Assembly: GCF_000981445.1 (NCBI RefSeq)
Contig: NC_027216.1
Coordinates: forward strand, 372,001-436,000
From: Babesia bigemina
Taxonomy: Eukaryota
Direction of reading: 5' to 3'
DNA length: 64,000 nucleotides
Made by a program: the position numbers and the translations under genes. How positions within the stretch are numbered: position 1 is the stretch's first letter; every line of letters begins with the position of its first letter. Shown one piece after another: positions 33,002 through 61,300 of this stretch. Below the pieces are notes generated by a model that had not been told where the DNA came from, did no database searches, and saw only the letters and a program-made list of their open reading frames with translations.

Positions 33002-33130
33002 TCTTATAGTGTGCTATGTGGCTACGTGCCTTGGGCCGGTTTTCGTGTTTGCGGGGCTAACGCCTCACGCTGAAACCGGTTGCGGGATCCATGTCCTTCC
33101 GATGACGAAGATCAGTTGTCCCATCCGTGA
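33002..33130 (+). repeat. Island-boundary element, copy A
   Basis: GCTATGTGGCTACGTGCCTTGGGCCGGTTTTCGTGTTTGCGGGGCTAACGCCTCACGCTGAAACCGGTTGCGGGATCC aligns with 39135-39295(-) and 61169-61300(+). Confidence 0.85.
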
Positions 33131-33321
33131 TGCCATCCACCCTGTGGGCGCGAAGGCCGTTGATGATCTTGCAATGGTTCCTGCAAACTATTTCGCACAT
33201 CAGATAGGATAAATATTTGCACCATGCCGAATAGTCGATCTCTCTTAACTTAAATCACATCACCTAATCTTCATACCGCACCAACTCCTACGCAATACAC
33301 TTGGCATGTCGTTCAGTCGCG

Positions 33322-33627
33322 GTTAAGACCACTGACCCGTACATGCAAGGCTGCGGAGTTACCTACGAGTTGGATGAGTTGTTCAAGCCTGAGACACCCA
33401 ACTGCTTCTACCAAGTCTCGGTGAACGGTGAAGTGAAGGACCTAGGCGAATTGAGCGAATCGATGTTTACGACGCGTTCCAACCACTTCATCATTCTAAA
33501 GTTCGACAGTGATAATATAGGACCTGGGGAGGAGCTGCGCCAGACGCCGCCATTGGAGTGCCGCTGCACCACCGTTAAGCGCATAGTCCTATCAACCATC
33601 CAGATCGAGAACTACTACTCCAAGTAA
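33322..33627 (+). pseudogene. 3' fragment of a 6-Cys gene with a 108-nt internal deletion
   Basis: TTDPYMQGCGVTYELDELFKPETP|NCFYQVSVNGEVK...LECRC...STIQIENYYSK* matches the C-terminus of 5514-8372 minus 36 aa. No ATG or signal peptide. Confidence 0.85.
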
Positions 33628-34551
33628 TGAGTAGATGAAACTCGGTAACCCATTTGGCAATCACAGACTTTAATTGTCATACGTCACGTTGGTCGATCTG
33701 CTGGGTTGTGCCTTCAGTGAGAGCATTGCTTTGTGAAGAGTGTGGTAATTGTAATTACCAGTCTAACGACATATTCTTGTGTTGTCGTGGATTTTTGTAA
33801 CTAGTGTGAACGGCCGTGGACCCGGTGAAGATTGTGCTGTGGAATTACATGTCACCACACCTTAGTTGTGCATTGTTTACCGCAGGCATCAGGAAGATGC
33901 AACTTAGAGGTTTGCATATCAGTTCGCATTTTGAAACCTCTACAATGCCCTTAACACACGACAAAGAGCAATACGTGGTACCTGGAATGGGACTTCACTG
34001 AGCCCCCAATTTGGGTGAGCAACTGCTGCGGCGGTGCCTGAGCACGTTGGGCAACCGGTGGGAGTGGGTGGCTATACCGTGTGGATTTCACTCTATATGG
34101 GCGAATCTCGGTGAACTGTTGCCTATGTATGAGTTATTTTCAGTGTGGTGACATTTATCGTCAGCATCGTTATAAGCCTCGAAGTCGTAACCCCAGACTG
34201 CACCCTAGCAGACGCTTTGAGGGGCGCCCCGCAAACATGGCTACCCACTTATTAGTTACCCCGAGAAGGTTGCAACGAGCGTGCACACAATACAATCTTA
34301 CGTGAAGCATTGGCATTTTTCTCGCTTCAAATACAGGTGAGTCTATTTTAATACTTATCATGCTGGCGCAGTAACTAGACGATACATCTGTCAGCGGTGA
34401 ATACGACGTGTTTTGAGGGCGGCGAGCTTCAGGAACACGTTTCGAGAGCACACGTCGACGACAGTCTGTCTTTCGTTTGAACAAAACCATTTAGCTATAC
34501 ATCCGTGGCCAATTATTTCGCATTACTACGTTTGAATCTACTGCGTGCGAG

Positions 34552-36264
34552 ATGGCGGATTCTTCAGGAGGGGACCAGCCAACCCACCGGGCAACGACTA
34601 TTTCTATCAGTGAGGGTGAGGAAGGAAATGAAGGTATCTATGGGACATCCGAGAGTAGCACACGAGGAAGTGATACAATAGAACATAAGGGCACTAACGA
34701 GAACGAAATGAGCTCACAATCAGCGGCTACAAGAGACTTACTCGCGTCACAAGCAGCGTATGAAGTCCGCCAATTCCCGTTACAAGCAGCGCATGAAGTC
34801 CGCCAATTACCGTTAGAAGCAGCGCATGAAGTCCGCCAATTACCGTTAGAAGCAGCGCATGAAGTCCGCCAATTACCGTTAGAAGCAGCGCATGAAGTCC
34901 GCCAATTCTGGCCACAAGGAGCGTATGAAGTCCGCCAATTCTGGCCACAAGGAGCGTATGAAGTCCGCCAATTCTGGCCACAAGGAGCGTATGAAGTCCG
35001 CCAATTCTGGCCACAAGGAGCGTATGAAGTCCGCCAATTCTGGCCACAAGGAGCGTATGAAGTCCGCCAATTCCCGTCACAAGCAGCTGTTGCAGGCCGC
35101 GCATTCCCGTCACAAGAAGCTGTTGCAGGCCGCGCATTCCCGTCACAAGAAGCTGTTGCAGGCCGCGCATTCCCGTCACAAGAGGCTGTTGCACCCTTCC
35201 CATTCTTTCCACAAGAGTCGGTTGCAGGCCGCGCATTTCCGTCACAAGAAGCTGTTGCAGGCCGCGCATTCCCGTCACAAGAAGCTGTTGCAGGCCGCGC
35301 ATTCCCGTCACAAGAAGCTGTTTCTGGCCGCGCATTCCCGTCACAAAATCCTGTTTCTGGCCGCCGATACTCGTCACAAGCAGCTGTTACAGGCCGCCGA
35401 TACTCGTCACAAAATCCTGTTTCTGGCCGCCGTTTATCGTCACAAGCAGCGTATCAAGGCCGCGCATTCCCGTCACAAGCAGTGTGTAGAAACTGCATAC
35501 TCGCGTCAGAAGCAGCGTGTAGTAACTGCATATTCGCGTCAGAAGCAGCGTGTAGAAGGTGCAGACTCGCGTCACAAAATCCTGTTTCCGGCCGCCGATA
35601 CTCGTCATAAGCAGCGTATCAAGGCAGCGCATTATGGTCACAAGAAGCTGTTGCAGGCCGCCGATACTCGTCACAAAATCCTGTTTCTGGCCGCGCATTA
35701 TGGTCACAAGAAGCTGTTGCAGGCCGCGCATTCCCGTCACAAGCAGCGTATGAAGTCAGCCCATTCTCGTCACAAGAAGCTGCTACAGGCGACATACTCG
35801 CGTCAAACGAAGCGGTTAGAGGCGACACAATCTCGCCAGAAGCAGCGGGTAGCGGCGCCGGCAAAGATGATTCAGAAGCAGGATATAAGGATAAATGTCG
35901 TAAAACTTTGCGTAAATTCCGGAAGTCTATAAAGAAACGTTTCCGTTTTCGTAGTGAGTATGACCGCAACTCTAGCAGCACTTCTGAGAGTTGCGGTAGT
36001 AGAAATATGGAACAGGTTATCATTGACACTGCCAACTATGCCGAAGACATAAGCACTTTTGTCAAGCATATTGCGGAGAATCTAGACCGGCTGATTCATT
36101 TTGGACCTCCCCCCCAAAAGCACCATTCAGAACGTGACAAAAACGACAATGCGCGTGAAGACGTGGAACAGAGTTCAAACGACACGTTCAGTGCAGGCAG
36201 TGAGGATGGTACAGAGGATCTTCCGCCTGAAGACCATAATTCTGAGAGTGAAGGAGGCTTGTAA
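34552..36264 (+). pseudogene. Paralog of the 33-bp-repeat protein, interrupted by one in-frame TAA at 35608-35610
   Basis: ORFs 34552..35610 and 35908..36264 are in the same frame. The stop is a CAA>TAA change in a repeat unit (TCGTCATAAGCAGCG vs the usual TCGTCACAAGCAGCG). Confidence 0.8.
34715..35850. repeat. 33-bp minisatellite array (about 33 units: EAAHEVRQLPL, PQGAYEVRQFW, SQEAVAGRAFP types)
   Basis: 33-nt periodicity seen directly. Confidence 0.95.
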
Positions 36265-37694
36265 ATAGCTCTTTGCACCCGCGGGAATCGCCACGTGAAG
36301 GTGGCAGCGTGGGCACGAACTATTCGACAGCCTGGATGAAGAAAAGACGGGGACGACGTTCACGCAGTGCTTCCTACCCTCCTTGTGCACTTCACCCTTG
36401 CTGTACACGCTTACATCCAGTAATAACAAGCGCATATCACCTAAGCAGCAACTAGAAAGTAATGTAATACATGAATGCGTCGGTTTATTTGTTTATGCTC
36501 TGGTCTGGCGATCGCTAAAGTCGGCAGCACGACAACGCCTTGTAAGATTCGGTGACGCGTCCGCCAGATGAATGTACGGAATGCGAATGATTGTTTGAGT
36601 ACCCACGTGATGTGATATGTCGTGTCTCTTGAGGAATCGGTATGAATCTACTGCATCTTAATCCTACACCGTGGTTCACACAGACCGTTGTTAGACCATT
36701 AGCGTGGTATATGGGTGCGGCGGAAACGTGGCAGCCTGAACTGGAAGCATGACCTTCAATTGAAATCCAAATGAGCTCACATTGGTATGGGCAAACGATA
36801 TATGGGAATGTGTACAACTGCGGTTCAGGAATCCCGCCGTGGAAGATTGCGTCAAATTTCGAGATTCCCTCAGGCTTTATAGAATGTCGCATTGGAGCTG
36901 CAATGTTCCGCAATTAACACCTACTAGTAGAGCCGTACGATTAGTTTACAAACCAACAAACTATTCCCCCAAGAATACACATGAAGGACGCACACACACA
37001 CGAGATCGTACGCATACACACAGCAGTACCAAACATAATTGTGCACTAGATTCTGCAGCAACAGCCGATCACCGCTGATATGATGCCTGATTTAAAGGGA
37101 AGGCGACCAACGGTGCCATCGTCTGAAGTTGTTACATGCCAAGACACCTTAGGAATCGCAGTTGCCGCAATCACCTAAAGCAGAAAACAATTACGATGCG
37201 CACGTTAGACAGTAGAAGAATCGTCTGACTCCGTCACCGAATGATTGCGAGGTCGATCAACAGCGAGTAACGCGCGACTCCATAAGCGCAGCAACACACC
37301 ACTCGCAACCAATTGCAACATTGTTGAAATATCTACACATTGTCACACATTGATTCAACATGCAGAGCTACTGTATACGCCCCTTTTGGCCAAAACTTAT
37401 GCACGTCTATCACTCGCGCTTTACATAGTACATGCCACGCTTATTGTCTAGAACTGGCTGCGATGCAGCACTTTTGGCATGAGTGCAGTGCCCGAAATTG
37501 ACTATTTTGTGCGTTGACGGATTTGCAGATTGTGATAAATTACTGGTGTATTGGAAGGCAAAGGCATTTGGGTTGTCCGTCTCCTCGATTAGGACACAGG
37601 TGCTTCAATACGCTTTCTGTCTTATATACTGTTCTGCAGACAGCGTAACAACACACGTTTATAGAGGTCACCTTATCAGAAGAATCTTTGCAAA

Positions 37695-38565
37695 ATGGTA
37701 TACAATTCGTTGACCAATGTCCCTCGCAACGTGAAGGAAGCCATTGACTGGTTGATGGCCGTGAGGGGAGATGGTGCTAAAAGAAACGTAGCAGCATTGT
37801 GTGCCGCACTCTTCAGTTCCCTGGCAGACAAAACTGTTGACAAGATGGAGATGCCAGCCCTCGAAGAAGTTAAACATGTTACTAAAGTTCCTGGATCAAC
37901 CGGAGCTTGGGAACCAGTGGTTCGTAGGAGGGCTGGTTAAGCGGTACAACGACCTTATTAATAAATCACCTGGAGGGTTAGCTAAGTACTTTCGGGTTGT
38001 TGACGAATCCGATGAGAACGTCGTAAAGGGCAAGGGTATCACTGCTGGAGCCATTGTGGAGAACCTTGGCAAAGTTGTTCATGGTACCGAGATATTCTTG
38101 GATGATATTAAAAGCCCAGGCGAATACGAGTCTGCTTACAGTCCAGAGGCTGCGTGGAGTAAATCATGTACCCAAAAGCCGGAAGATTGCGCAGCTGTCT
38201 TCGTGGGTATTGCGCCCATGTTACGGGCAAGCATATCATCTTTGAATGCTGCTGTGTTTGCTGCGAAATTGAGATTGCCGCCGTTTATTGCTTGTAAGCG
38301 TATGCAGCAGTTGATACAAGCATTGGGTTACGTAGAGCCACAACGCCGCGCTGGCATGAGTGGGTTTGATGTCCCCAAAGCGTTGAGAGGTCTATATTTA
38401 CGAACACTGATAACGCTATGCGACTTCACAGGATTCTGGGCTTTCTGTGGATCGAATAATCCTGATTTGGGAGCTGGTAAACATGGAAACTATCCGGTAT
38501 CGGAAGTTGATTTTGACGTTAACATGAAGCCCATAGACGCTTCCATGAAGATAGGATTCCGCTGA
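37695..38565 (+). pseudogene. Short ves1-like gene with a frameshift near 37885
   Basis: MVYNSLTNVPRNVKEAIDWL...EEVKHVTK continues as FLDQPEL...YSPEAAWSKSCTQKPEDCAAVFVGIAPML...DFTGFWAF in another frame (ACTAAAGTTCCTG vs TCAAAGGAGTTCCTG, 2 nt missing). Confidence 0.8.
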
Positions 38566-39134
38566 CCGTCTAGCACATACACTGCGCTCGGGTCGGGTAA
38601 CATGTATTATCCCGGTACGCCCACAGTATCTGATTTAGGAGCGGCTATTCCACTTTGATGGGCTACATGTCATGTTTATTCGGCTTGTCGTAGGGCCTAT
38701 TCTCACACCGCTTATTAAGTATGTGTTGATATAAGTGTAAATCCCCTACGCCTATTGTTGTAAACTGCTAATCGGTTAAACTAATAAGTACAGCAGTAAG
38801 CAATGCCGTGGACGTATTTATAAGCTTATTCGTGGCCGTAGTGCAGGATTCCGCCCGGCAATCCGCCCATATCGGTAAATAGTGGGAATGTTTGACAAGC
38901 CATCCGTATGTCTGAGGAAGACCATCGTCATCGTGCATATCGGAATGACTAATCAAAACCATCTTGCGTGAGAGACATTAGGCATCTGAACCACGTAGAC
39001 GGCGGAGTATCTCAAATGGGCAGTTCGAACCAAGTGCCGAGTTTCAATACGCCAATCCATCCGACGTGGAACACGAAACCCAGGCTACTATGACTGTGAA
39101 TAGTCACATTGCCCAAACTAGATAAATTCCGTTT

Positions 39135-39295
39135 TGGATGGCACCTGTTATGGTTGGCAACGGAACGGCGTGGAACCTGAAACCAGTATCGGCGTGAGGC
39201 GGTAGCCCCGCAAAATCCAAAACCGGCCCTAGGCACGTAGACACACAGCAAGCAATAATATGAGAACGCAAATTAAAAACACTTAGATAAGACAA
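39135..39295 (-). repeat. Island-boundary element, copy B
   Basis: Reverse strand TGCTGTGTGTCTACGTGCCTAGGGCCGGTTTTGGATTTTGCGGGGCTACCGCCTCACGCCGATACTGGTTTCAGGTTCCACGCCGTTCCGTTGCC, near-identical to copy C. Confidence 0.92.
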
Positions 39296-39494
39296 CATAA
39301 TAATAGTAATAATAATGTTAGCTATGTTTTTACATATACGATTTTGAGTACATTATGCAGGGTGATATTTCTGCTATTGTTAACTCATGCTTCATATGCC
39401 GAGTGTGCCATAAAATGGCTGTTGCTGGTCATAACAAATGTCAGGTTCACTCGCGTGAGCAAGCACTGACATTGCTTCTTTTTCAACAGAGCTA

Positions 39495-41087
39495 CTAATG
39501 GGTAGTAAGACCAAACGCATATGTGTCGACACCACAAAACAATGGGGTTCCGGCCGGTGAAAGGGGCAAGTTGTGCAGCTTGAAATATCCGCCGTCTCCC
39601 CAACGATCACCCCACGAGTTTTTTACGATCCAATACTTCGTTTTGCGTTTAGTGTTCTCTCCGTATCCGACTATAAGCACGGAGTGCATGAGTGTGGAAT
39701 CGCAGCTGCCGTCGAAGATTCCTGAGCTGTAGTGCATGAATGCTCTGCTGAGCCTAATGATAATCATTACGGGTCCGTGGCTTCTAAGGTGCTCTTGTAT
39801 CATGCGGGCGTTAAGCCGTTTAATGTTATCGACCTTGAACTTTTCCCCACAAGTTTTCTCCCTGCACGCAGTCTTTCTGCCTAGGTAAGGATAGGCGGGT
39901 TCAATGCAAAGACCAGTAGTGGAGGCATATACAAGCGCCTTTTCCTGATTACCCCCTCTAACACAGTTGTACCTCTGCGATGTACAGTCTAGAATCTGTT
40001 GTACACTATGTTGTAGACGCTGTCCAGTGGTAATGGCGCGGTAGGCGTCAACAAGACCTGCCACCGCCACCGCCCAACACGACCCACACGAGCCTTGGTC
40101 CACAACTGGTCCTATGGCATTTGTGTTTCTCCAATCCTTGTGGACTATGTCACCGTCATCGACATTTTTGGATCCTGAATACATACTGGTATCGATGAAC
40201 CTTCCATTTTCGTACATATACATCGGTCGAGACCAGCCATTTGTGCTTAGGGCAATGCCAAGCTCCGAATCAGAAAACTCGGATGCCCAAGAGTACGCCA
40301 TGGTATAGAGCTTGTCAGGGTTAGAGTTATGCTCGTCAATAAGCTTCTTTGTAGTTTTGAAGTTAAAATACTTCTTGACGAATTCTTTCTCGTTTCCGTA
40401 ATGTGAGCCGTTAACGGTTATGAACTTTTTGTAGGCTATAATAGTCTCAACTTCGTTTTGTTCGTCGAATTCTTCTCGCCTCTCTGACAGTTCATGGACT
40501 ATGGCTCGTATTTCCCAGTCCAGCACACCCTTAATGTCATTCTGCTTATCGGCACAGTTGATAAACCACCCCTTCTGCACACAGGCCAGGAAAGGCCCAG
40601 GGATAACTTCTAGCTTATATTCTCTGATTTTATCAACCAGTAAGCTGTAGTGTGGATTACTATGCGCTGATTCGAGCGACTTGCCATAGTCGACCTCAAC
40701 TGTCTCATCAACGTGTTCGGTTAGCTCAGACACCACCTCCCTTCGTTCGGGCAATAGCCAGTTTTTTTCGAGGATTACGTTCTCCTGTTCATGCACTATA
40801 TGCTGCTGTTCATGTACTACCTCGTTCATGCCAAGCCTGATATTACGCATAAACGGCAGAGATATATCTTCCATGCCGATTATACTTTTGTATTTGCAGA
40901 CTAAAAGTACAATGAGGGAACCTACCAGTGTTAGGGCGATGATAATTAAACCAACATTAATAGCCCTTCTATTACCCCCATTGTAGCGTCGTTCCCGGGG
41001 TTCTCCCCGGACGCCGTTGCTTCTTATCTGGACGGCATTTGGTGGTGCAGTATCCATTGATACATCCACTTCGTAACTTGTTGACAT
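39495..41087 (-). CDS. Papain-family (C1A) cysteine protease with N-terminal type II membrane anchor (babesipain/falcipain-like)
   Basis: DQGSCGSCWA, HSVLIVGYG, YWIVKNSWG catalytic motifs. TM helix at about aa 45-63 and a prodomain. Confidence 0.93.
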   Translation of the reverse strand: MSTSYEVDVSMDTAPPNAVQIRSNGVRGEPRERRYNGGNRRAINVGLIIIALTLVGSLIVLLVCKYKSIIGMEDISLPFMRNIRLGMNEVVHEQQHIVHEQENVILEKNWLLPERREVVSELTEHVDETVEVDYGKSLESAHSNPHYSLLVDKIREYKLEVIPGPFLACVQKGWFINCADKQNDIKGVLDWEIRAIVHELSERREEFDEQNEVETIIAYKKFITVNGSHYGNEKEFVKKYFNFKTTKKLIDEHNSNPDKLYTMAYSWASEFSDSELGIALSTNGWSRPMYMYENGRFIDTSMYSGSKNVDDGDIVHKDWRNTNAIGPVVDQGSCGSCWAVAVAGLVDAYRAITTGQRLQHSVQQILDCTSQRYNCVRGGNQEKALVYASTTGLCIEPAYPYLGRKTACREKTCGEKFKVDNIKRLNARMIQEHLRSHGPVMIIIRLSRAFMHYSSGIFDGSCDSTLMHSVLIVGYGENTKRKTKYWIVKNSWGDRWGDGGYFKLHNLPLSPAGTPLFCGVDTYAFGLTTH

Positions 41088-41977
41088 CTGGTAGCAACGC
41101 GTGGCTTGAGGTTTATTTAAGGTAATGGGATAGAACCTATAAACGCCACCAATGCGTCCGTTATACGATGACTTATTTTCTGTATATTGATTTTCGTGTT
41201 CACCTAATCAACAAAAGCGATCTCAAATATGACAGACGCTCATTGTCACAGGATGCCCATTCGCGTATGTAGACAGGATTAAATGTTAAATGCCACGTCT
41301 TTCTGATGTATTGGTGTTAGCTTGGTACGGGATCACAAGTGTATGGAAGTACGGCAAGTCAGAAATTCTACACCCGCTTATAGCACTGGTTTCACTACAA
41401 TATAGTGCAACGGCGCCATGTGGAGCTATTGTGCGTGCAATAGACTGGGCCGCCGGCGTACAGATCTGTACTCCTACGACCGGAATGCGATTAACACGGT
41501 TGCCATTGTATTGGAGCCGAAGTAATCTACCAGTTAACCTGGTAGTACTCGGTAGATTGTGCGAGATGTAAACTGTGCGAACGTGCTCAACGACGGTCAA
41601 CCTGCGTAGCCTTCTTGCGCCGTGACTGTCGTTTCACACACCTGTGCCTAAAGTGACATAGACACGTTTATGCAATGTAGCAGTAGCTTCCAGGCAGGAT
41701 TTCAGCTATTAATCGTTGATTTTATCCTGTGACATTGCCATTGCCTTGTGTGGGTGCAACGTTGCTGCGCCAGCGCCGGTCTGTCGTCTTGCGGCCGGAG
41801 TCGGGCCAAGCGTCTCAGGACGGGCCGAATGCATCATAGAGAGAATATACTCACCAATACTTGCGCTGTCCGAGCTGCATCCAGCTACGGCCGCCTCGAC
41901 GTGACACAAGGTGGTGGTCTGGCGCGGCTGCATTCTTAGCCACCCATACAGCCCTTCACAGTATCCAATTTGCAACC

Positions 41978-42336
41978 ATGGTTACGTTAACGTGGCGTTC
42001 GAAGAGTGAGTTTTAGCTTTATCATTGCGTAACGTTCTTTCCCCGCTGTCCCTCATCAGTGTGTAGCGCTGCTGTCGCTCATTGCGTTCGTCTCGATCTT
42101 CGTCTTCGCTGCAAGCCCTCCGTGGGACAAGTTTTGGTACGCCCACGCATACGATTTCACATCGCACGCAGGCTCGTGTTGCTGTTCATATTCAGCCTTT
42201 TCCTGATGTTCGACGTATTGTTCGTGACGCCCAGGCACTTCGACTTCGACCCTTTTTACAGGTTTGTTTGCCCTGCTGTGGCGTCTTAGCGGTGCGCAGC
42301 AATTGGGAAGCTCGTCAAAACGACAAAAGGGATTAG
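41978..42336 (+). CDS. Predicted 74-aa two-TM microprotein, 4 exons (41978-42005, 42067-42136, 42172-42261, 42300-42336)
   Basis: Three GT-AG introns give MVTLTWRSKTLLSLIAFVSIFVFAASPPWDKFWLVLLFIFSLFLMFDVLFVTPRHFDFDPFYSNWEARQNDKRD* with consistent phases. Confidence 0.6.
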
Positions 42337-43673: not shown

Positions 43674-43801
43674 TTTGACGTGTATTTACGATGCTCAGCA
43701 ATTCGTAACTTGTTTGCTGTAATGATTCTCAGCCTTCCACGTGCGACTCATCGCGATGTGCCGCTGTGGTGCGGGGGAAAGTAAAGCGGCGGCGACGCTC
43801 T

Positions 43802-50160: not shown

Positions 50161-52265
50161 CTAATTAGTGTTTATTAGTTTCTGTAGTTGTTTTCTGGTG
50201 TAGAGGCACTCTGCGAGCCCTTGGAGGCCGGCCACGCCCTCGTTCGTGAGGGTGAGGCCGCGCGTGAGCCGGCGCACCAGCGGCCGGCACCGCTCGCGGA
50301 GCGATACCTCCGCGGTGCGGTGGGAGGCATCGCCGCCCGCTTCGGCGTAGGCGATGAGGTAGAGCAGGGTCGCGACGCGCTGTTTTTGCGGGTGCTGCAG
50401 CAGGTCGTGGAACTCCCGCCAGAGCTGCAGCACCGGGGACGTGGACGCCACCTGGAGAAACTGCTGCATGGTTACCGAATCCAAGGTAAAGTCGCCCTTT
50501 CTGTTTTTGAGGGTGAACATTGAGTCCGTCGTTGGCATCTCCCTCCTGTGTACGTGGTGCTGCACGAGCGCCGCCATGTGTAGGAGGTTGCCCCCGCTCA
50601 TCAGAATGTCGAGTGCGGTGGCTACCAGGTTGGGTGACCTTAGGGATCGCCGTATTTGCAACGCCGGCCGATCTATGGCCACCTGAAGGTGCGCAACATC
50701 AGTTTCGTCGAGGAACACGGTGACTGGGTCATTCCTGGAAGCGGGAGTGATACCGGTTGCACGCATCCGCATATCGGCGCTTAGGGCGAAGAAGTATCGC
50801 GTTCCCATTGCGTCCAGGAAAACCATACTCGCGAGATCGCCGCCTCGCATGAAAAGTGGCTCCGTGTGGTAGCTCACTAGAGGGTGGCCGCCGCAGCGGT
50901 GCCTTTGGTGAGTGCCGTCCTCCAGATTGTAGACAACGGCCATGTTGTGCACCAGGGCTATGAGCAGCCGCGCGTCTGCGTCATTCCCGTGGAAAACGCG
51001 CACCCGCAACATTTCCGGGGGGTGTGGAAATGCTACCAAATTTCGCCACGGTCCAGCTGAGGCTTGCGGTATCCGGTCCCCGTCCAGGGGTATGCGCAGC
51101 TCGATGGTCCTGATGTGCCCATCGCCTGTACCCACGAACACGTCATACACCAGTCTGTGACGTTCAACAGCATTCACCGCGATCGCCATCGAGCACACAT
51201 GCCCCGATTCCATTGTTGCGATAGCGTGGCAGCCCACTCTGCGTTTGGTCGTTTTGGAGATTGGCGTCGGAAACAGGCATTTAATATTGACCATGTCGAA
51301 CCTTTTTAAATCATCGGGCTGCTGGTTGAATACGTGGGAGTCTGCGATAATGCGGACAATTTTGCTCTCAGCGGCCTCCTCCGCGTTTTCGTCCGCCGCC
51401 TCATACTGGGGGCCGCCGTCGCTGTAAACAGATCCGTTTGAACCATCATCACTGCAATCGTCAGTTTGCTCCACGGGTAGGGTAGAAATCCACAAAGCAA
51501 CGAGGTGGCGTCCGATTCCCACTAATCCGGCGAACCCGTGGACTGTGTGTTGAGGTGCGAAGTGACACATGCTCACCCCGGCGTGCAACAGGGCTGAAGA
51601 GTGATGATCGTTCGCTGGCGCCTTTTTATTGTGCAACCGCGGTGCGATATTTGTCAGGTGCGATGCTACCGCTTCCGAGAGGTCGCAGATTTTCTGCGCG
51701 TGTTGGCTTCCTCCGACGGTTATGCAGAACCCACCTCGACTTCGTACATTTCCTCCGAATGAGTGCTTTTTGGTAGCCACATTTCGAAGCGTTCGTTTAT
51801 GGTAACGGTGCATAGCGCCGACGTGAGCCGTCCATCCACGGGTATGGCGGCCGGGGTCCAAGCAAAGGCGACGAACCTGGTGGAGGGGTGAGATGCCTTA
51901 TTCGGGTAAAATCACCTCGGAGATGGATTTAGAAGGGACATCTTAATTAATAGGGCCTGAAAACAATGTCCTGGAGTGGCAGGGTGACCAACCTGCTCCT
52001 TGCGCAGTTCTTCGGGGGTGGAGTCCATGGGTTTCAGGGCGCCCTTGGAGGCATTGCGAGTGGCCAATTTAACGTCCAATCTAGCGTCACTCGGAATCTT
52101 AGATACCACTTCCGCGTATTGCCGCCTTGTCTGTACGACATAGGCATGGTTGAAGTGCATAATGACGACCTGGTTGTCCTCGGATGCCGCTGCAATTGAA
52201 CGCCTTGATATGGCATGGCACCCGGAAAGGGGGCGACCGTCGTCGATGCGGCACAGCAGCGACAT
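50161..52265 (-). CDS. Hypothetical protein, probable beta-propeller-like N-terminal half, multi-exon
   Basis: 566-aa ORF plus upstream exons with GT-AG boundaries. Beta-strand-rich segments (VFVGTGDGHIRTI). Confidence 0.6.
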
Positions 52266-53788
52266 CCTGGTCACTGTAGGTGACCTTTGCTCGCCTATGC
52301 GAGCGATTTGAACGCGTTTTACGGTTCTGACATGCTCAGGAAGGCCGCCCTATTGCCCGCCTTTCGCCTACCCTGTGGCACCCGAGGCTTCCACACGTGA
52401 TCATGCCGGCACGGCAGCTTCAAATATCAGCACGGTCACTCGCGATTATTGCCATATTAGCCGCAAAGGCGGTGGTGAGCAGCTGAGTTTCTTACTACAC
52501 ATCTCCGCGACACTTTGGGTGTATGTCTGCACGGTCCCATGCTGTAGCTATACACATGCGTAAACCGCCCATCTCCGTATTATAGTTACATTTTTCACGA
52601 CACTTACGGCGTACTATTGCTTGCTATAGCAACTTTGCGGCTACTTTTCCGAGAGTGGCGCATTCCTTGGATTCTGCTCGATAGGTTACAATGCAGCTCT
52701 ATACATGTTCTTTTTGTGTCTTAACCGCGTCGTATTGCATGTCTCCTATGCTTATTCTCGACTCACGAGGCCTTGCGAGCTGTGGCGAACGCAATTAGGC
52801 GCGCCTCGCAGCCGCACGGTGTATCCATGCTTGGACGCCGTTTTCACCAGTATGCTACGCGACACTGCGCACCATTTACGTAGCTGCCCGCATAAGCAGC
52901 TCCGGTTGGGCGAATCCAGCACCATGTTGTAAACGCTTACTAGGCTAACTCGGCACGCTTTCCAGCACATGCACGTCAACGTCCCCGCAACGTACAATGC
53001 TAATCGCTGTTCACGGACATTGTGCAGTGATACGCCATAGTAAGACCGGAAAACTAACACTTTACGCTTGCTAAGTCACTCGTAGCTAACTCCAACATGC
53101 TGTTACGAAGCGTTTCTAGCGCCGCCGAAATGTACTATACGCATCCATTCACGCAACACGACATAGTTTTAAATAGCACTTTAGGACCACAACCTTATGT
53201 TTGTTTAGTAAGTGAAGATGACAGCCTGCACAAAAGACGCGTACGATTTTGATTCAGGACGCCGCGCAACGCATTCCTGCATCAAATTGTCGTGTTGAGG
53301 TTTGGCGCTCCTAAAGTTCCTTTAGCACATTCTGGACAATGGTACCCACCTAAATGGCAGATTCAGCGGGTTATATGTAAACATATTGCCGCAGTTCCGA
53401 TAATGTAAAATCATGCTGCCACATCATATTCCGCATCCGCATTTTATCCTAGTGTAGAGCATTTGTTGGCAATTCTGCTTCATATAGGCCGTCAGTTGCA
53501 GATAGCAGCGTAGATTACTGCGGTTTCCTGCATGGATTAATTTAGGGTAGCAGAGCTCTGGTTGGCGGAAACAGCAGCTGGTTATTTGGAGTTACACCGG
53601 GGTTTTACCCACTTAACACGCCATTTAAGCACGTATAGACATTATATTTGAACTGCATTGTCGGTTTCAAAGGTGTAGTAAAGTTTCCACATTGGTTATA
53701 CTGAATGAATGGGCCACTACGGGCGCATTGCTCGAATCAAAAGATTGGCACGCTCGACGAATGTAACCTCCCGTGATGTCTACTAAAT

Positions 53789-56627
53789 TCATGGTCTTAT
53801 TTCTGTCTTAACAGCCACGCCAGCGTCGCCTGCTTTGGAGGGTGTATGAGCCATAGGCGTATTTTCCGAGCTCTGACATTTAGCTTTTTTGATCGATTTG
53901 ACGTTCTTCGGAGTCTGAGGTGCATCTGATTCCACAGTGTTGGCAAACTCGATAACTGTTTTACGAGGTTTGGCGAGTTTCGCAGCGTTTTGTGGGTTTG
54001 AATCCTTTGCAGTCTCGCGCGGAGTGCTATCAGGCGGTCCTTCATCGGCACGTATCCTCTTAACGTTTTTATCGCTAGCTTTGGCGCTATTCCCCTTCTT
54101 CCCTGCAGGCGCCTTCCCACTTTTACTGCCTTTCTTGGCCTCCACGAGTTGGACCTTGCCCGGAGCGGCGGCAATATCGGAGTTGTCATAGAACACAATC
54201 GGGTCCTTGTTCTCCTGTTCAAAAAGGTCGTCAAAAGTGGACGACTCGTGAATGTACATAACAACCACGCGTGAAACGTCGGCAGTGATGATCAACTTTG
54301 TACCACTCACCTCTTCCACGACTTGCGTCAACAGGTCAGCAATGCAACCATACGCCTTGTCAAAAACGTACTCCCCATGAACCTCCTCTTGAACCAGCGA
54401 ACTGAAATCAGTAGCTGCAATTGAGATTGACGTGGCCAATGCGAGGTTGATCATCTGCACCCAGGTGAGGATGTCCGCAGCGATGTACTTATACAGGGTT
54501 ATTAAGCTGCTCACACGCTTCCACAGTGAGCAGCGCCGCAGAATGTTCGCGAACGAGCAACAATCGACATCTACACCATCGTTAAGTTCGCCTCCTTTGC
54601 CGTTCTGCGCTATCTCAAAGCTGAGGCCTTTTGGCGGGGTAGAAGCCTGCGAGGTGTTAACGACTAGATCCGCCGACATCAATGCACCATCAACTGGGCT
54701 ATGTCCACCATCGATAGCGCGTGACGGCGTCCTGGTGACGCTCACACTTTTCCCAGTGGCGTCAGATAATGTAGACCGTGGAGACACATCCGTCATACCA
54801 TGATCGGCATTGACTGATTCGTTCGATTGCCGGGGCGTGGGCGTTTCATCCTTTGGTTCTACCGTATCCGTCTCTTGTGTAAGTAAATTTGTGGGACTCA
54901 ACGAATTGAGATTTGCAATATCGTCAGGGCGTGAAGTGGCGTTTTTAGGGGTGCCTACCGCTTCAGTTGCAGGCGGTTGGTCTGACCTGCTGTTCACCTT
55001 CTTCGTGGAAGTGCCGTTCTTCACGGATTTCCGCTCCACCGCTTTGAAGTTATCAGACGCAGCTGTAAATGCCGCCTCGTAATCGCGCATAACTCTGCGC
55101 ACGGTGTGGACGCTCTTTGAGACGTGTTTCATATTATCGGCCAGCCTCGTGAAGAACTTCACGTCCTTTCGTGCCTTCAGTGGCTCCACTTTGGAAAGCC
55201 ACTTGGAATGCATGCGGTCCCGCATCTCGCTTATCATCCGCTCGTTGTGATCCAGCACCAGCTTCAACCAGGTCTCATGCATGTCGCGTCGCGACACGGC
55301 GTTGGTGACCTCCCATATGGCCGCCGCAATCCACCTCAGAATGCGGCCGTTAACACCAATGATTTTTCCAACACCTACACATTTGAGTCCCCGCCTTTCA
55401 AACTCCATCCGCTGCTCCTCTATTGGGTTTTTGTTGCTGGCATTCGTGGCATCCCCCTCTGGCTGGGCCTTCCTCTGCCGTGGCTCTTGGATTTTCGTTA
55501 AACGAGTAAAGATTGCGTTCAATAGCTCCGTTACAGCACAGCGCAGCGTTTGCGTTGTAAACTGGCCTGAGTAACCTTTGTACTTCACTTCGAATTCGTG
55601 AAATATGTGATGGAACTGCTTAGGTATGCGACCCAGGTACCTGCGCCATCCAGGTGGGTCAAAGAACAGCACCTGCTGCTTAGGTATGTCTGAGTCCACA
55701 TCGTCTTCTATCTTCAGTTCAGAAGAGTATTGTGCCACAAAGTCTTCGGCAACCAGTTCGGACCCGAACGCCTCCTCTTCGTCCTCGCTCCAGACTGAAA
55801 AATCTCGCTCTTTCTGCTTCTTACGCAATATGTCGTTCTTAGACAGGCGGAGTTCGCTGAACATTGCATCGTCATCGATGAACGGGTCGTCGATGTCGTA
55901 GTGCATGTCGTCGCCGCCAACCTTGAGGTAGGAGGTGGGGTCGCCGACGATGCCCTGGATGTTCAGACGGTCGGTAATGGACTGGATGCACCTAAGGAGA
56001 GGGTCGTTCGGCCTAGTCTTCATCCACATCACGTCATCCAGTGATACCTCCGTCGTCACTTCTGCACCACTGTGGGTGTCATCTTGAGATCCCGCTTTAT
56101 CAGGTTTGCTGTCGGCGTTTGCCTGAGCCGCGTTCGCAGTTGGCGCCTTTTTACGATCTCGCCCAGTTACGTCCGTCACCTGGCTGCTCTTCGCCCCGAG
56201 ATAGTGCTCCTCAAGACTGAATAGCTTCTCATCACGATACGTTTTCATGCACTCCGCATAAAAGTCCAGCATCATCGGCACCTGCTGCTTGGCGCCATGG
56301 TTTTCCGCGTATACAGCCTTCAGCTTCAAATCAACAGACACGCCTATTGGGAACATAAGGAGCGCAATAGCGAGACTAACCTGGCAGGTAGCGTTTGACA
56401 GAGGGCTCTCTCAAGCTATCCTCATCCTCTTCAGACAAATCCTGCTCAGTGAGCTCCTCGTCTTCCACGGTCATGCCTAATCCGTTGCCAGCATCCTCGC
56501 TTGAATCCTGTGTGACCTTCTCTGATTGAGTAGTAGGTGTGTAATCCATAACCGAAGCGGCAAGCGCTGTAACAGCCTCCACAGGCGTCTCCGTGGGAGG
56601 CTCCACAGCGGCGGAATCGTTCACCAT
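53789..56627 (-). CDS. HPC2/ubinuclein-like (HUN/HRD motif) histone chaperone subunit, at least 2 exons
   Basis: HYDIDDPFIDDD motif in an acidic region, large low-complexity protein with basic tail. Exon 1 starts MVNDSAAV at 56627. Confidence 0.7.
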
Positions 56628-56778
56628 ATGCAACACATGGGCAGTATGTAACACTGCGACGAGTTTGCGAGACTGTCTTGCTTAATCATCCGGCGGATAT
56701 CGGAGCCGCTATCGCCATAATCTTGGGCATGTGTATGAAACTACGAGGGTCGATATGCAATTTACGCCGTATATTGAC

Positions 56779-56851
56779 TCCCATGTAGTCTAGGTGGTTA
56801 GGATATTCGGCTTTCACCCGAACGACCGGGGTTCGAGTCCCCGCGTGGGAA
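56779..56851 (+). tRNA. tRNA-Glu (anticodon TTC)
   Basis: Acceptor TCCCATG/CGTGGGA, anticodon arm TTCGG-CTTTCAC-CCGAA, T-loop GGTTCGAGTCC, T5 Pol III terminator at 56855. Confidence 0.97.
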
Positions 56852-57088
56852 GACTTTTTCCACATCGTGGTTACGCTTTGCTTAACTTTGATTATTCATC
56901 GGAGGTCTACAATGCCAGCAGCGACAATCATTAATAATTGCTTTAAGGTTTCTGTCGGTACGTCAGTCGCTTTGGTGTTGCTCCCCGTTGGTTACATGAT
57001 GCTCCCAGCGTTTGGCGTCCCATCGCAGCTCGAGTTGCGCCTTTTTTACAGGCGATCCTGTCGTTAGGTTTATATATGTATTGCCAAT

Positions 57089-58303
57089 TTATAATTGACG
57101 ATCAGCAAGCGCTGTCATGCGATAGAATAGGATGTAGCTGTTCGAGTTGCCGCCACTCTGCTCGTCACCCAGCTCATAGCTGACGTCGGACACGCGGACG
57201 GTCGATGAGTCGTCGCAACAGTACCAGCGTCCGTCGACCTCCGTAATTGCGTTGTAATGTCCGTAGCTGGGCGAGGTGCCCACGTGGTTCACCACTGCAA
57301 ACAACTCATACACAACGGTGGAGCGCTGCTTCCTGCTTTGCAACGTAACTCTGCGGTTGGAGATGACGGGGTACGGTAGCCGCTCGAACGAGTCGTACAT
57401 TGCGCTGTACGACTCGTTCGGAGAGACAGCTGTGTACCTGAAGCGCTTGAGGTGGACAATGAATATCGGCGGCAGCTTCTCGAAGACCACACGCTTTGAA
57501 GCGTCCGTGTACTCCCGGCATCTGTCGCAGTAGAACTGGTTCTTCCCTGTCAGTCGTTCTGGCGCGCAATACTGCTGTATGCAGGAGGCGATGTCGCAGT
57601 TCTCGAAGATGTCCACTGATAGCGTGATAAACGGCTCCAACGTCCCGGTCACCGTCAAACAACCGTCACACGTTGTTTCCGACTTCAGTGAACCCTCCAC
57701 TAGGCGGCTTAGCCAGGTGCGTTCGCTTTTTTGTTCCTTCTGGGATGTTATCTCCGGAGCACGACATTTTCCAGCGAGGTCCCTACCACTCCCCCCGTCA
57801 CCGCCCCTATGACGGGAATAATCGTTACCAGCGCCGCCACTCGGTTGGTCGCCATTGTTCAGCGCCTTTATTTCGTCCATCATCGTGTTGATGAGGTACG
57901 TAAGGAACTCGTGCGCATCCTGCTGGTCTCCCAAAACGAAGTATTCTACGACAAATGAGCAAGTAAGCATGCGCCATACGCACCATTCTTCTTGCATATC
58001 TTCTGCAGAAGCTTCTTCGGCGATTGCACGCCTGAAAGTGTCTGTCACACAGCTATCGTACTTACCGTTCAATCCAGTGCAGCGCTCGTAGAGCTGCCCC
58101 AAGGCGCTGGAAATCTCCGCCTTCAAGCGTTTGGCGTATGATCACATAACACATACCTCCGATTGCGATAGCCTGACCGCCCTGTCCCGAAAGGCGTGAA
58201 TCGGGTAAAGCGCCTGTAGGACGGCATTGCAGTAGCAGTTGTTGTAGGTGTTTTCAAGGCCGCTAGGGCCGATCCCTCCGGCAGTGCTATCGCGCCCGGG
58301 CAT
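57089..58303 (-). CDS. Ubiquitin-specific protease (C19, USP12/46-like), multi-exon
   Basis: Cys box GLENTYNNCYCNAVLQAL, QQDAHEFL, FYCDRC, HLKRF, His box HVGTSPSYGHY, YILFY. Confidence 0.92.
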
Positions 58304-58583
58304 AGCCTCACCAAATCCCAAATACTGTTTGATAACGTGCATCCCGAAGTCAAATCAAAGTGCCGTTGCAATTTGTTGCGCCTTGCAGCTCCACATGAGA
58401 GCGTTGGGGCACACGCAGCTTGCATACATTATAATCTAGCTTGCATCGCGCAAGAGCATTTTTTGACACGTGTGCTGTTCCGATTATTTGACGATCGCGC
58501 CGCATTTTCCCACAGCGGTTGATCAGCGCGCGGACAACGGCCACCGATGCTCTCAACTAACTACTGACGACGCTACACGGTTA

Positions 58584-61010
58584 ATGCGTCTGTCGCGTGT
58601 TTTTCGTCATCTGTGTGTACCAGAGGTTGCGAGGCTTCGCGCCCTGGTACGTGATGGCGGTGGCGACGCGCAGACCTTGTATGCGTTGTTCCAGAAGCAC
58701 AATGAGCAACTGTCGCCGACCGAAAACCTGCTAGCCGCAGTACACATTGAGAAGCTATCTGCTGGGCAAGACGGCAGCGAGGAAGTAGCTTCCCGGATGG
58801 CCAATGTGCGGGCAACGGCTTTGGCCAACATACGTGGAAAGTTGTATGCTTTCACCGACCCCGGAGACCTGTGCAACCTGATTCGAGCGGCTTTGGCGCA
58901 TGGTGTGGCCTCCAGGGGGCTTATATATGATTTTTACGGGCGGCTTGAGAGGCTGCTACCGCATGTACGCGGGGAGGCACTCACCCAGGCCTGCCATACG
59001 CTAGTGGAACTGCACAAGGCCGGTACGTGTAGCGCATGTCACGGCATCACCGACAGCAGGACACCGAGTAGTGCCTATTTGCTCCAAAATATTCGCGTAT
59101 ATTGCAGCCCGCGGCTCCGAGAGCGAATTGACCCTCCCCAACAGTGTAGCGCTTGTGCACTGCATGGCAGAGACCGACATGCGTCACGAGGCGCTCGGTT
59201 CCCGTGTTGGTAGGTAGAGATTCGGCGTGTTGCACGACTTCTGTCCATTTGGATTATTGCCGCTTGCATGGTGCTACGTAGTGACTGGGTGTCCAAATGC
59301 GAGGCTGCCTGCCCACTAATACGCAAATACCGACTGTTTTGGCGCTTGTTCACGTCCTTACAGTAACGTGGGCCTGTGGATGTGTTCCTTATATTTCGAA
59401 CGCTTCACCTCGAGCGTCTTGATGTTGGCAATGATGCGTTCCAGGCGTTTGTGGGAACGCTGGCTTACACGTGGTGGTTGTGACTTATGCTAAACTCAAA
59501 TAGAGAATTGCAACTCTATGCGATGCACGCGCTGCTTTGCTTTTTTTAATCGTATGAGAAGACGTATATCACCGCTGTATAGGCAGAAGTCTTCGGCTAT
59601 TGCTGACCCGGGGTGGGAAAATCACTACGGAAGAGGCGTCCGCTCTCCTTCAAGCCTATAAGGAAGATATGTTCGACAGTGTGTTCATACGCCGTAGGTT
59701 GATGGAGGCCGCACTCACGGTGCGTGTAACACTTGCATATTTCATACCTTATGCAGGGAGATGCTATACCTATGCAAGTGCTCGTCAACTGCTTGTCCAC
59801 GGGCGTGTTTTCTTCCAGCAATGCCAACCGGATAGATGACCTTGTACTAACTGGTTTGTCTACCTGCGATGTGAAGACAATAATACGACTACTGCTTGGA
59901 TATGGGAACCTCAGGTACAGGCCGGCAAAGGTTATATCCGAGCTCACACGCACACTGGAATCGGTAATGTTTAACTTGGACTCTTTCGATGACGTGGCGC
60001 GTTGCATTCACAGCCTATTCTTACTGGACGAACATAATCCGGTCGTCATGGAGTTTGCGACCAACTTCATCAAGGGATTAGATGGTGGGTACGCTTTACC
60101 GTCACAATAAACTCCGATGCAGTTCCGTTGGGAGTGGAAAATATAGAATGCATATGTGATGCTCTTTTGGCATTCTGTCACTTTAATATGAATGATCCGG
60201 AAGTGTATCAGAGGCTTTTAAGAGAGGTAATGCGATTAGATTGCTCCATACCCTCAGCTTGTCTTGTTCGGCTGCAGTTGGTCGCCCTGTACATATGGTA
60301 CGTCTACATGCGATGATGGCCGTCGAACTAATGACTCTTTTGATGTTGATTTGAAACAATTGCTCCAATAATTGGTGCGAACTTTCGCGACGGCATTACT
60401 TTTAAGTGACACTGCAATAGGAAACTGACGCCCCAGATTTTTGACTCATTGGGCGAGACGTCCCAGCAATATCTGCTGGAGGTTGCCCACAGAGTAACTA
60501 TGGAACCAGAAACAGTGCGGAAGTGTGACCTACAGGAATCCGTGGGGAAGACGGCAACTTTCGTATCGCATGTTCTGTACAAGCAGGTAGAGTTTGATTA
60601 CATACAGCCATCAAAAAGACGCAGGTTCAGGTTGGTCCGTATCTCGTCGATTTCGTGCGCGCGATCGGTCAAGAGGAACTGGCGGAGGCCAGGCAACGGG
60701 ATCCCCGAAGACTGCGCACACGTGGACCAGGGGAAGAACGCTTGCTTGGTAGGCTGTTGAGCAACCTACTGACCACCGCGCAGGCAACTACTTGAGACCA
60801 TTAGCGAGCATTATACTTGCCGACGATATCGTACAATTTTACAGACACAGTCGCGAACGCACTGCAAAGTCTCAGATACAGCTGGGTCTGCTGCAGCGGC
60901 TCGGGTTCAGGTGCATTTGCGTACCTTACTGGAAATGGGAAGAACTTGGCGGTTGGCATCAAAAGCGGGAATATTTATCAGAGCTGTTTGTTGAGCATAA
61001 GTCAACATAA
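58584..61010 (+). CDS. RAP-domain RNA-binding protein, many exons
   Basis: Helical-repeat body. C-terminal QVGPYLVDF...RTAKSQIQLGLLQRLGFRCICVPYWKWEEL...YL matches the RAP domain pattern. Confidence 0.78.
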
Positions 61011-61168
61011 TTCCTCTGTAATTACCTTTGCCTGACTTTGATATGCGGCGTTCCTTAAAATGACATCGGGCCAATTTTTGCTTTTTTCTCATGTGTATTA
61101 TGTCCAAAAGAAGTTATCGTATTAATTGGCGTGAATAGCAATAGCGCAGAAGTATTATGTTACTTTCT

Positions 61169-61300
61169 TGTCTTATCCTATATTGTGCTGTGTGTCTACG
61201 TGCCTAGGGCCGCTTTTCGGTTTTGCGGAGTTACCGCCTCACGCTGATATTGGTTTCAGGTTCCACGCCGTTCCGTTGCCGAACTCATTCGCCATCACTG
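61169..61300 (+). repeat. Island-boundary element, copy C
   Basis: TGCTGTGTGTCTACGTGCCTAGGGCCGCTTTTCGGTTTTGCGGAGTTACCGCCTCACGCTGATATTGGTTTCAGGTTCCACGCCGTTCCGTTGCC. Confidence 0.92.

What the first reader, a model, noticed from the sequence alone, without database searches (positions are those of the whole stretch)
33002..61300. A ~110-bp non-coding element marks the junctions between housekeeping blocks and variant-antigen islands, always pointing into the island
Seen: homologous copies at 33002-33130(+), 39135-39295(-) and 61169-61300(+), plus a degenerate candidate at 9130-9225(-). Each lies within about 150-600 nt of the last block gene and is oriented from the block into the ves-like/6-Cys island. 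Copies A and B bracket the 33-39.3 kb island as inverted termini. I saw no copy inside a housekeeping block. Copies B and C keep a GCGG-(5 nt)-CCGC hairpin despite loop changes (GGCTA/AGTTA), and all three have a second imperfect stem around C(T/C)GA..GGTT..(T/G)C(A/G)G. Established: P. falciparum internal var clusters are flanked by GC-rich RUF6 ncRNA elements linked to var regulation. Inference: this may be an undescribed Babesia chromatin boundary, ncRNA family, or recombination/insertion terminus that organises antigen islands. There is no canonical Pol III B-box; GGTTTCAGGTTCC is only loosely similar.
Basis: partly seen in the sequence, partly recalled or inferred. Interest (0 to 1): 0.88.

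Follow-up and report, generated by a model that had tools for sequence, protein, structure and literature searches.

The report
Conserved end-piece of Babesia antigen islands
A cattle-parasite (Babesia) chromosome carries a repeated, non-coding stretch of about 130 bases at three of the four antigen-island edges in this window; one copy starts where two other isolates switch to different DNA, so it likely forms the outer end of antigen-gene cassettes that are swapped between sites.

Summary
Three copies are real: A 33002-33110(+), B 39153-39260(-), C 61176-61284(+), 79-92% identical over an ungapped 96-nt core, with unrelated flanks. The 9.2-kb candidate is chance, so 3 of 4 island edges carry it.

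It is non-coding and not RUF6-like: no canonical A/B box, T4 runs inside, fold z about 0, no covariation, no Rfam hit.

B and C lie 495 and 624 nt beyond a ves2-like stop and face it. The two ves2-like genes are 59% identical (48% at four-fold sites) while B and C are 92%, so the element is selected or converted on its own. A precedes a truncated 6-Cys tail, as at another B. bigemina locus. Public contigs show many further copies, some inside long abundant RNA-like contigs. In two other isolates the unique flank matches up to 32983 and then diverges, about 5 nt outside A's family-like end.

Best reading (0.45): a DNA end-module of exchangeable ves2/6-Cys cassettes. Rivals: ves2 3'-end element (0.22), retroposon relic (0.13). 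Boundary function is untested and no whole genome was available. I found it undescribed in the library searched. Interest 0.55.

The parts
32984..33127 (+). Copy A (core 33002-33110; family-like outer extension from about 32988; inner extension to about 33127)
   Evidence: contigs of other copies lay from 32988/32993 (table 8)
39135..39295 (-). Copy B (core 39153-39260); faces the 3' end of a broken ves2-like gene, 495 nt from its family-length stop
   Evidence: the outer extension resembles loose ends of other copies (judged by eye)
61169..61285 (+). Copy C (core 61176-61284); faces an intact ves2-like gene 624 nt away; lacks the inner 25-nt extension of A and B
32983..32984 (.). Isolate-variable junction between the unique flank and the A-ended island
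   Evidence: table 8: X2 record 1 lays 32700-32983 (2 differences), then 122 nt do not lay; X3 record 10 lays 32861-32983 (0 differences), and 114 nt on the island side do not lay; no joint listed
33294..33627 (+). Truncated, frameshifted C-terminal remnant of a 6-Cys (s48/45) gene directly behind copy A
   Evidence: homologous to the C-terminus of 5517-8399(-), which hits PF07422; table 4
33294..38222 (+). Island 2 interior: inverted duplicate of 88-5956 (6-Cys tail, 33-bp-repeat gene, 5' part of ves2-like gene), with tracts up to 99% identical
37695..38658 (+). Broken ves2-like gene (frameshift near 37880, premature stop at 38563)
61908..62666 (-). Intact ves2-like gene, 252 aa, of a large B. 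bigemina/B. ovata family
   Evidence: 145 relatives at E <= 0.001; the name ves2 is inferred from size and N-terminus against PMC4066756
61296..61652 (.). Further multi-copy non-coding blocks (about 61296-61480 and 61560-61652) between C and the ves2-like stop; a paralogous RNA-like contig skips 61396-61432 at GT..AG on the + strand
   Evidence: tables 2, 5, 7, 8
9130..9225 (-).

Best explanation
The element is a non-coding repeat of about 130 bp that sits outermost at three island edges here and likely acts as DNA, as the conserved end-module of ves2/6-Cys cassettes that are probably copied and exchanged between sites by ectopic recombination. Shown: it is non-coding, its flanks are unrelated, it is far more conserved than the genes it flanks, it is multi-copy, the unit element-spacer-6-Cys tail recurs, and an isolate-variable junction lies about 5 nt outside A's family-like end. 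Inferred: its usual place is 0.5-0.6 kb beyond a ves2 stop, facing the gene; A-type copies arose when that end was joined to a truncated 6-Cys tail and were then duplicated as a unit; the nearly indel-free core without covariation is kept as a fixed-spacing protein-binding site (or is homogenised by gene conversion) that would limit the cassette against its housekeeping neighbour and mark where exchange tracts end.
For: (1) B and C are 88/96 identical, while the ves2-like genes beside them share 102/247 aa, 435/741 nt and 22/46 four-fold sites. Spacers and outer flanks score no better than shuffles (74 to 199 of 200 shuffles reach the observed score). Passive co-duplication is therefore excluded. 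(2) Contigs of two studies leave the window sequence at the same base, 32983, and contigs of other copies begin to lay at 32988-32993. (3) Multi-copy: summed contig depth is 49-79 on the core against 3.65 on the unique flank in X2, and 36-73 against 3.9 in X1; up to 10 and 12 contigs share a variant letter. This shows many copies but is not a copy number. (4) The same unit exists elsewhere: BBBOND_0308800 matches the element (residues 3-45, E 1.5e-7) and the 6-Cys tail (residues 120-145, E 3e-7) in the same order, and an X6 contig bridges element end, spacer and remnant with 23 differences over 279 nt. (5) The island interior is a recent inverted duplicate of another island. (6) No RNA-gene or coding signal. 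(7) PMC4066756 (sections read) reports ves loci at breakpoints, 17-22% of ves2 loci absent between strains, and that recombination-promoting flank motifs 'may exist in Babesia'.
Against: (1) The island edge at 9.2 kb has no copy. (2) The junction rests on one contig per run, at depth 3.65 and 4.5. The letters beyond it were not displayed, so the other allele may be an empty site, another island, or a copy under 80% alike. (3) RNA-like contigs carry the element with 476, 1207 and about 1450 nt on its outer side, at depth 10-145; at some loci it is therefore inside transcribed sequence, which favours a UTR role. (4) Other multi-copy non-coding blocks of similar depth lie next to C, so the element is one module among several. 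(5) The signal at 80% identity looks like tens of copies at most, against 116 ves2 genes (PMC4066756). (6) No target-site duplication. (7) No binding, chromatin or boundary datum at all.
Confidence: 0.45

Rival explanations
1. It is a 3'-end or 3'-UTR element of ves2-family transcripts, read on the strand opposite to the first reader's (termination, polyadenylation or mRNA control). It looks like an island edge only because ves2 is the last gene of the cassette; A-type copies are rearranged relics.
For: B and C face ves2-like stops at 495 and 624 nt. A paralogous ves2 RNA-like contig extends 421 nt past the stop in X4 and X5. Element-bearing contigs reach depth 71-145, like the ves2-end contigs (40-135), against 5-12 for the neighbouring block gene. 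The long element-bearing contig ends 1248 nt on the island side in all three RNA-like runs, about the length of spacer plus ves2 coding sequence (this reading is inference).
Against: No contig joins the element to a ves2 stop (no such joint). A and BBBOND_0308800 precede a 6-Cys tail, not a ves2 end. No near-identical RNA-like contig is listed over A or C themselves. No conserved fold on that strand. Contigs give neither strand nor ends.
Confidence: 0.22
2. It is the conserved end of a short degenerate retroposon (SINE- or SIDER-like), mobilised by the LINE-like elements reported in B. bigemina and B. ovata. It gathers at islands and may carry downstream sequence with it.
For: Sharp ends with unrelated flanks; an isolate-variable junction at its outer end; presence in long RNA-like contigs; LINE-like elements cover 0.97% of the B. 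bigemina genome (PMC9141347, passages). A G.U-led 7-bp stem and a loop-like heptamer recall HDV-type ribozymes at LINE 5' ends (recalled).
Against: No target-site duplication beyond a 7-nt AT-rich match, and no canonical A/B box; no poly(A) tail in the sequence. The HDV-like descriptor fails in all three copies under strict settings, and the P3 stem cannot form. No reverse-transcriptase domain in 68 of 129 island reading frames scanned. Inward orientation in 3 of 3 is not predicted.
Confidence: 0.13
3. It is the promoter or 5' module of transcripts that run into the island: antisense RNA against ves2, or 6-Cys-family transcripts.
For: It is co-oriented upstream of a 6-Cys tail at A and at BBBOND_0308800. 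A spliced + strand RNA-like contig lies in the block behind C.
Against: That spliced contig has 28 unrelated letters where C's end would be (table 7). Abundant 6-Cys RNA-like contigs with up to 652 nt upstream do not lay on the element (no joint). The full-length 6-Cys gene at 8399 has no copy upstream.
Confidence: 0.08
4. It is a RUF6-like small RNA made by RNA polymerase III that regulates ves genes in trans or insulates them.
For: GC-rich (54-56%) in flanks of 34-43%; about 130 nt; tail-to-tail with antigen genes like RUF6 (PMC5175341, passages); a one-mismatch B-box in B and C.
Against: 34 of 426 window tiles hold such a one-mismatch box, and A has two mismatches. There is no perfect A-box. 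T4 runs lie inside every copy and none follows the core, whereas the window's tRNA-Glu has perfect boxes and a T5 behind it. z about 0; consensus covariation term +0.35; no Rfam match of note.
Confidence: 0.07
5. It is a short coding exon of an unrecognised gene family.
For: One frame is open in all three copies, and one annotated hypothetical protein begins in that frame. One long RNA-like contig lacks the stops seen in another frame.
Against: 9 synonymous against 31 non-synonymous pairwise codon differences; variable sites fall 8/9/6 over the codon positions. No shared start codon. Only one credible hit among 1.84 billion representatives and none for the other frame. One X2 contig has frame-breaking indels.
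Confidence: 0.03

Closest known systems
Plasmodium falciparum GC-rich elements / RUF6 ncRNA (PMC5175341, passages read)
   Same: Short, relatively GC-rich multi-copy element beside variant-antigen genes, mostly tail-to-tail; an insulator role has been speculated for it.
   Different: RUF6 has A and B boxes, a preserved stem and a Pol III transcript acting in trans. This element has no canonical boxes, has internal T4 runs, no significant fold and no Rfam match.
Recombination-promoting flanks of variant-antigen genes (T. brucei 70-bp repeats and VSG 3' conserved box; recalled. General statement in PMC4066756, Discussion read)
   Same: [quoted passage not shown]
   Different: Here it is a single non-tandem module about 0.5-0.6 kb outside the gene. 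At A the isolate-variable junction lies just outside it, not inside it as a simple crossover anchor would predict.
Leishmania SIDER and trypanosome RIME/NARTc short retroposons with a shared 5' signature (recalled, not read here)
   Same: Dispersed short non-coding repeat, partly inside long transcripts; LINE-like partners are reported in this species group (PMC9141347).
   Different: No target-site duplication, no tail, and the ribozyme descriptor fails; no shared end with a LINE could be tested.
B. bovis ves1 bidirectional promoter of the locus of active transcription (cited in PMC4066756; primary paper not read)
   Same: A conserved non-coding region tied to ves genes.
   Different: That region lies between the 5' ends of divergent ves1 genes; this element lies beyond ves2 3' ends or before 6-Cys remnants.

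Membership tests
RUF6 / Pol III type-2 ncRNA | Canonical internal A and B boxes | tested here: not met
   best A-box 2 mismatches; B-box 1 mismatch in B and C, 2 in A; 34 of 426 tiles reach 1 mismatch; tRNA-Glu control 0 (consensus motifs recalled)
RUF6 / Pol III type-2 ncRNA | T-run terminator behind the unit, none inside | tested here: not met
   T4 inside all three copies, none after the core in the spans scanned
RUF6 / Pol III type-2 ncRNA | Conserved stable secondary structure | tested here: not met
   only 3 sequences, so the power to see covariation is low
RUF6 / Pol III type-2 ncRNA | Sequence homology to the Rfam family | tested here: not met
   window, E <= 1; A and B, E <= 10; only two hits far below gathering
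RUF6 / Pol III type-2 ncRNA | Strict association with antigen clusters genome-wide | tested here: inconclusive
   3 of 3 copies in the window, and one more locus next to a 6-Cys tail; no genome held
RUF6 / Pol III type-2 ncRNA | Discrete small transcript acting in trans | not testable with these tools
   only contigs were laid; they show no ends or strand
Chromatin boundary / insulator | Sits at a heterochromatin edge and blocks spreading or enhancers | not testable with these tools
   no chromatin data available
TIR transposon / MITE | Near-identical terminal inverted repeats | tested here: not met
   A and B are inverted but only 77/96 identical
TIR transposon / MITE | Target-site duplication and a partner transposase | tested here: not met
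   longest direct repeat 7 nt, AT-rich; PMC9141347 (passages) found no class II elements in Apicomplexa
SINE / SIDER-like retroposon | Target-site duplication and 3' tail | tested here: not met
   searches show no tail; one search tested a duplication around the whole A-B island only, not around single copies
SINE / SIDER-like retroposon | End shared with an autonomous LINE of the same genome | not testable with these tools
   no genome; four 10-mers of the core absent from the 45,078 characters of supplement text held for PMC9141347, which may not include the element models
HDV-like ribozyme | Nested double pseudoknot with P1, P2, P3, L3 and catalytic J4/2 | tested here: not met
   no strict match on either strand; relaxed matches in B and C have 2 of 3 P3 pairs broken (descriptor written from recall, no positive control run)
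Protein-coding exon | Excess of synonymous change in one frame | tested here: not met

The most novel reading that the evidence does not exclude
The element is a dedicated recognition end at which whole variant-antigen cassettes are inserted or exchanged in B. bigemina, possibly derived from a retroposon end. It would be the first cis-acting determinant of where ves2/6-Cys islands begin and how they move between chromosomal sites.
Probability: 0.2. Interest if true: 0.85.

Novelty: new variant of a known kind. Interest (0 to 1): 0.55.

Why it matters
Babesia ves genes sit at chromosome breakpoints and appear and disappear between strains, but no flanking sequence that delimits or moves these islands was described in the papers I could search; PMC4066756 names such motifs only as a possibility. 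A 130-bp marker that is more conserved than the antigen genes themselves gives a direct handle. One profile scan and a comparison of isolates would show whether island ends are defined by sequence, and the marker offers a probe for chromatin-edge and 3'-end mapping. If it proves to be a ves2 3'-end element, it is still the first candidate regulatory element for that abundant secreted family.

Tried and rejected
GENOME. A genome-wide scan was impossible: no genome is held.

REGISTER SLIP. One search placed copy B two bases out of register; its identities and profile were discarded and redone. One search read one ves2 segment in the wrong frame; its ves2 numbers were replaced.

FOURTH COPY at 9.2 kb: rejected.

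RNA STRUCTURE on either strand: no support. Rfam: nothing. HDV-like ribozyme: rejected.

CODING. The frame open in all copies gave 3 hits; two are tandem-repeat proteins from metagenomes (P0123, P0125) and were dropped as chance. The other frame gave 0 of 3 candidates. ESM Atlas gave no usable hit.

COLLECTIONS. Exact-pattern scans of metagenome contigs and viral contigs gave 0 matches, as expected for a eukaryotic parasite.

RUNS. No RNA holder listed on record: X3-X5 are RNA only by the tool's guess, which is supported by one GT..AG skip and very uneven depth. Uncovered stretches (including copies A and C themselves in X3-X5) prove nothing.

RETROELEMENT. No reverse-transcriptase or transposase domain in 68 of 129 island reading frames of 55 aa or more. 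The 61 left out mostly overlap genes already identified.

EARLIER FINDINGS. Searches returned nothing that bears on this element.

LITERATURE. Ten searches found no description of the element. Known Babesia promoter words (TGTGT/ACACA, PMC4148916; ACACAC, PMC13720069) occur in B and C but not in A, and most other copies differ there, so I give them no weight.
Full report
ORGANISM AND LAYOUT. The intact short gene at 61908-62666(-) has 145 relatives, and all 119 named ones among the 120 listed are Babesia bigemina or B. ovata hypothetical proteins, mostly about 250 aa. By size and N-terminus it fits the ves2 family of Jackson et al. (PMC4066756; I read the outline, Results parts 1-2, section 24, the Discussion and the supplement legends). 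The name ves2 is my inference. The window holds three islands. Island 1 (1-9.2 kb) has a 961-aa 6-Cys gene (PF07422), a 33-bp-repeat gene and a ves2-like gene, all on the - strand. Island 2 (33-39.3 kb) is an inverted duplicate of positions 88-5956 of island 1, with tracts up to 99% identical; it starts with a truncated 6-Cys tail and ends with a broken ves2-like gene. Island 3 starts at 61.2 kb. No whole genome is held.

OBSERVATION. Copies A, B and C are real. Over an ungapped 96-nt core they are 77/96, 76/96 and 88/96 identical. A and B share about 25 nt more on the inner side. Loose ends of other copies suggest 20-35 nt more on the outer side (by eye), so the unit is about 130-160 nt. All three point into an island. 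No other copy exists in the window: the next hits are E 0.41 (nhmmer) and E 3.8 (covariance model, filters off). The 9.2-kb candidate is matched or beaten by 103 of 1796 background tiles. So 3 of 4 island edges carry the element.

NOT CODING. In the one frame open in all copies, pairwise codon differences are 9 synonymous and 31 non-synonymous, and the 23 variable sites fall 8/9/6 over the codon positions. A profile of that frame found 3 of 1.84 billion representatives. Two are tandem-repeat proteins, which I dropped as chance. The third, BBBOND_0308800, looks like a gene model laid over another copy. The other frame, read with X at stops, found nothing.

NOT A SUPPORTED RNA GENE. Folding z-scores lie between -0.55 and +1.19 on both strands. 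The consensus hairpin has 2 of 32 pairs changed on both sides and an unfavourable covariation term; the other strand has 3 of 26. In other copies the listed variation there falls in the loop, which fits an inverted DNA site as well as a hairpin. Three sequences give little power. Rfam has nothing. A one-mismatch B-box occurs in B and C, but 34 of 426 tiles have one, A has two mismatches, and T4 runs lie inside every copy; the window's tRNA-Glu passes the same test perfectly (consensus motifs recalled). An HDV-like descriptor written from recall fails because P3 cannot pair.

CONSERVED ON ITS OWN. B and C face ves2-like stops at 495 and 624 nt. Those two genes share 41% of residues, 59% of bases and 22 of 46 four-fold sites. 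Their spacers and the outer flanks do not align better than shuffles. A 92% identical element beside 59% identical genes means selection, recent conversion, or independent movement.

MULTI-COPY. At 80% likeness, DNA-like run X1 gives summed depth 36-73 on C against 3.9 on the unique flank, and X2 gives 49-79 on A's core against 3.65. Up to 12 and 10 contigs share a variant letter. The tool warns that this is no copy number; I take it as many copies, probably more than ten. Indels are nearly absent: none, one X2 contig. BBBOND_0308800, on another contig, has the element followed by a 6-Cys tail, like A. BBBOND_0309160 shares the 67-residue middle part (59/67) and by eye ends in another frame of the same tail; its element is only inferred. 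An X6 contig bridges element end, spacer and remnant with 23 differences over 279 nt.

ISOLATE-VARIABLE JUNCTION. X2 record 1 matches 32700-32983 with 2 differences, then 122 letters do not lay. X3 record 10, from another study, matches 32861-32983 with none, and its 114 letters on the island side do not lay. No joint is listed, and the sequence has no splice acceptor there. Contigs of other copies start to lay at 32988-32993. The conserved core genome therefore ends within about 5 nt of the element's outer end, in an interval of about 570 nt. Limits: one low-depth contig per run, and the loose letters were not displayed, so an empty site, another island or a copy under 80% alike all remain possible. 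No target-site duplication flanks the A-B island. PMC4066756 reports 17-22% of ves2 loci absent between strains.

TRANSCRIPTION. X3-X5 are RNA by guess only; one GT..AG skip and depths from 5 to above 10,000 fit RNA. Three to five distinct contigs carry the element in X4 and X3. The main ones are 562-2809 nt long at depth 103-145, against 5-12 for the block gene beside C, and extend 476 to about 1450 nt on the outer side; one more (1324 nt, depth 10) extends 1207 nt. So some copies lie inside long transcribed regions, not in silent gaps. A paralogous ves2 contig runs 421 nt past its stop. No contig joins a ves2 stop or a 6-Cys motif to the element. Contigs give no strand or ends. This is the main evidence against a pure boundary and for the ves2 3'-end rival. 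Other multi-copy blocks lie between C and its ves2-like gene, so the element is one module of a mosaic flank.

MECHANISM. I commit to a DNA end-module of exchangeable cassettes (0.45). Shown: position, independent conservation, multi-copy state, the recurring element-spacer-6-Cys unit, and the junction at A. Inferred: spread by ectopic recombination; origin of A-type copies by joining to a 6-Cys tail; maintenance as a fixed-spacing binding site or by conversion; any barrier function. Rivals: ves2 3'-end element 0.22; retroposon relic 0.13 (LINE-like elements are reported in this species group, PMC9141347, passages); inward promoter 0.08; RUF6-like RNA 0.07; exon 0.03.

COMPARISON AND NOVELTY. 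It resembles RUF6 in placement only (PMC5175341, passages) and fails its defining tests. It works most like the conserved flanks of antigen cassettes in other parasites (recalled), which PMC4066756 says may exist in Babesia. Ten searches found no description. Term look-ups in PMC6630957 (0 hits), PMC9806345, PMC10463595, PMC4148916 and PMC13720069 (passages only) and supplement searches found none either. The library lacks most subscription papers; I did not read the primary ves-promoter paper or the B. ovata genome paper; and figures and repeat-model files that I could not see may hold it. Verdict: a real, apparently undescribed element, a new variant of a known kind.

Noticed in passing
window 13200-13661 (+): Cluster of three C/D-box snoRNA-like genes (SNORD96, SNORD18, snoZ159 matches, E 0.001-0.04, just under Rfam gathering scores).
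   Followed up: no
window 33321-33455: Paralogues of the 6-Cys tail are extremely abundant in the RNA-like runs (summed depth up to 6,000-12,600 against 5-12 for block genes) and multi-copy in DNA: a large, highly expressed family with this C-terminal domain.
   Followed up: partly
window 2193-4646(-) and 34495-36261(+): Two copies of a gene with long 33-bp (11-residue) tandem arrays between the 6-Cys and ves2-like genes; neighbouring tracts are 93-99% identical, which suggests recent conversion.
   Followed up: no
window 61296-61652: Two further multi-copy non-coding blocks in the ves2 3' flank, one with a 37-nt GT..AG intron on the strand antisense to ves2 in a paralogous contig: a possible spliced antisense RNA family.
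   Followed up: partly
window 32133-32440 (-): Small basic reading frame with one predicted membrane helix upstream of the DnaJ gene; no significant Pfam match.
   Followed up: no
window 39062-39081 (-): A weak 19-nt echo of the element's inner part 70 nt behind copy B (nhmmer E 5.2); not significant.
   Followed up: partly
window 8581-8611 and 56779-56851: A (TA)15 microsatellite upstream of the 6-Cys gene and a tRNA-Glu gene.
   Followed up: no
P0124 and P0128 (BBBOND_0308800, BBBOND_0309160): These annotated hypothetical proteins look like spurious models read through non-coding element and spacer sequence in different frames.
   Followed up: partly
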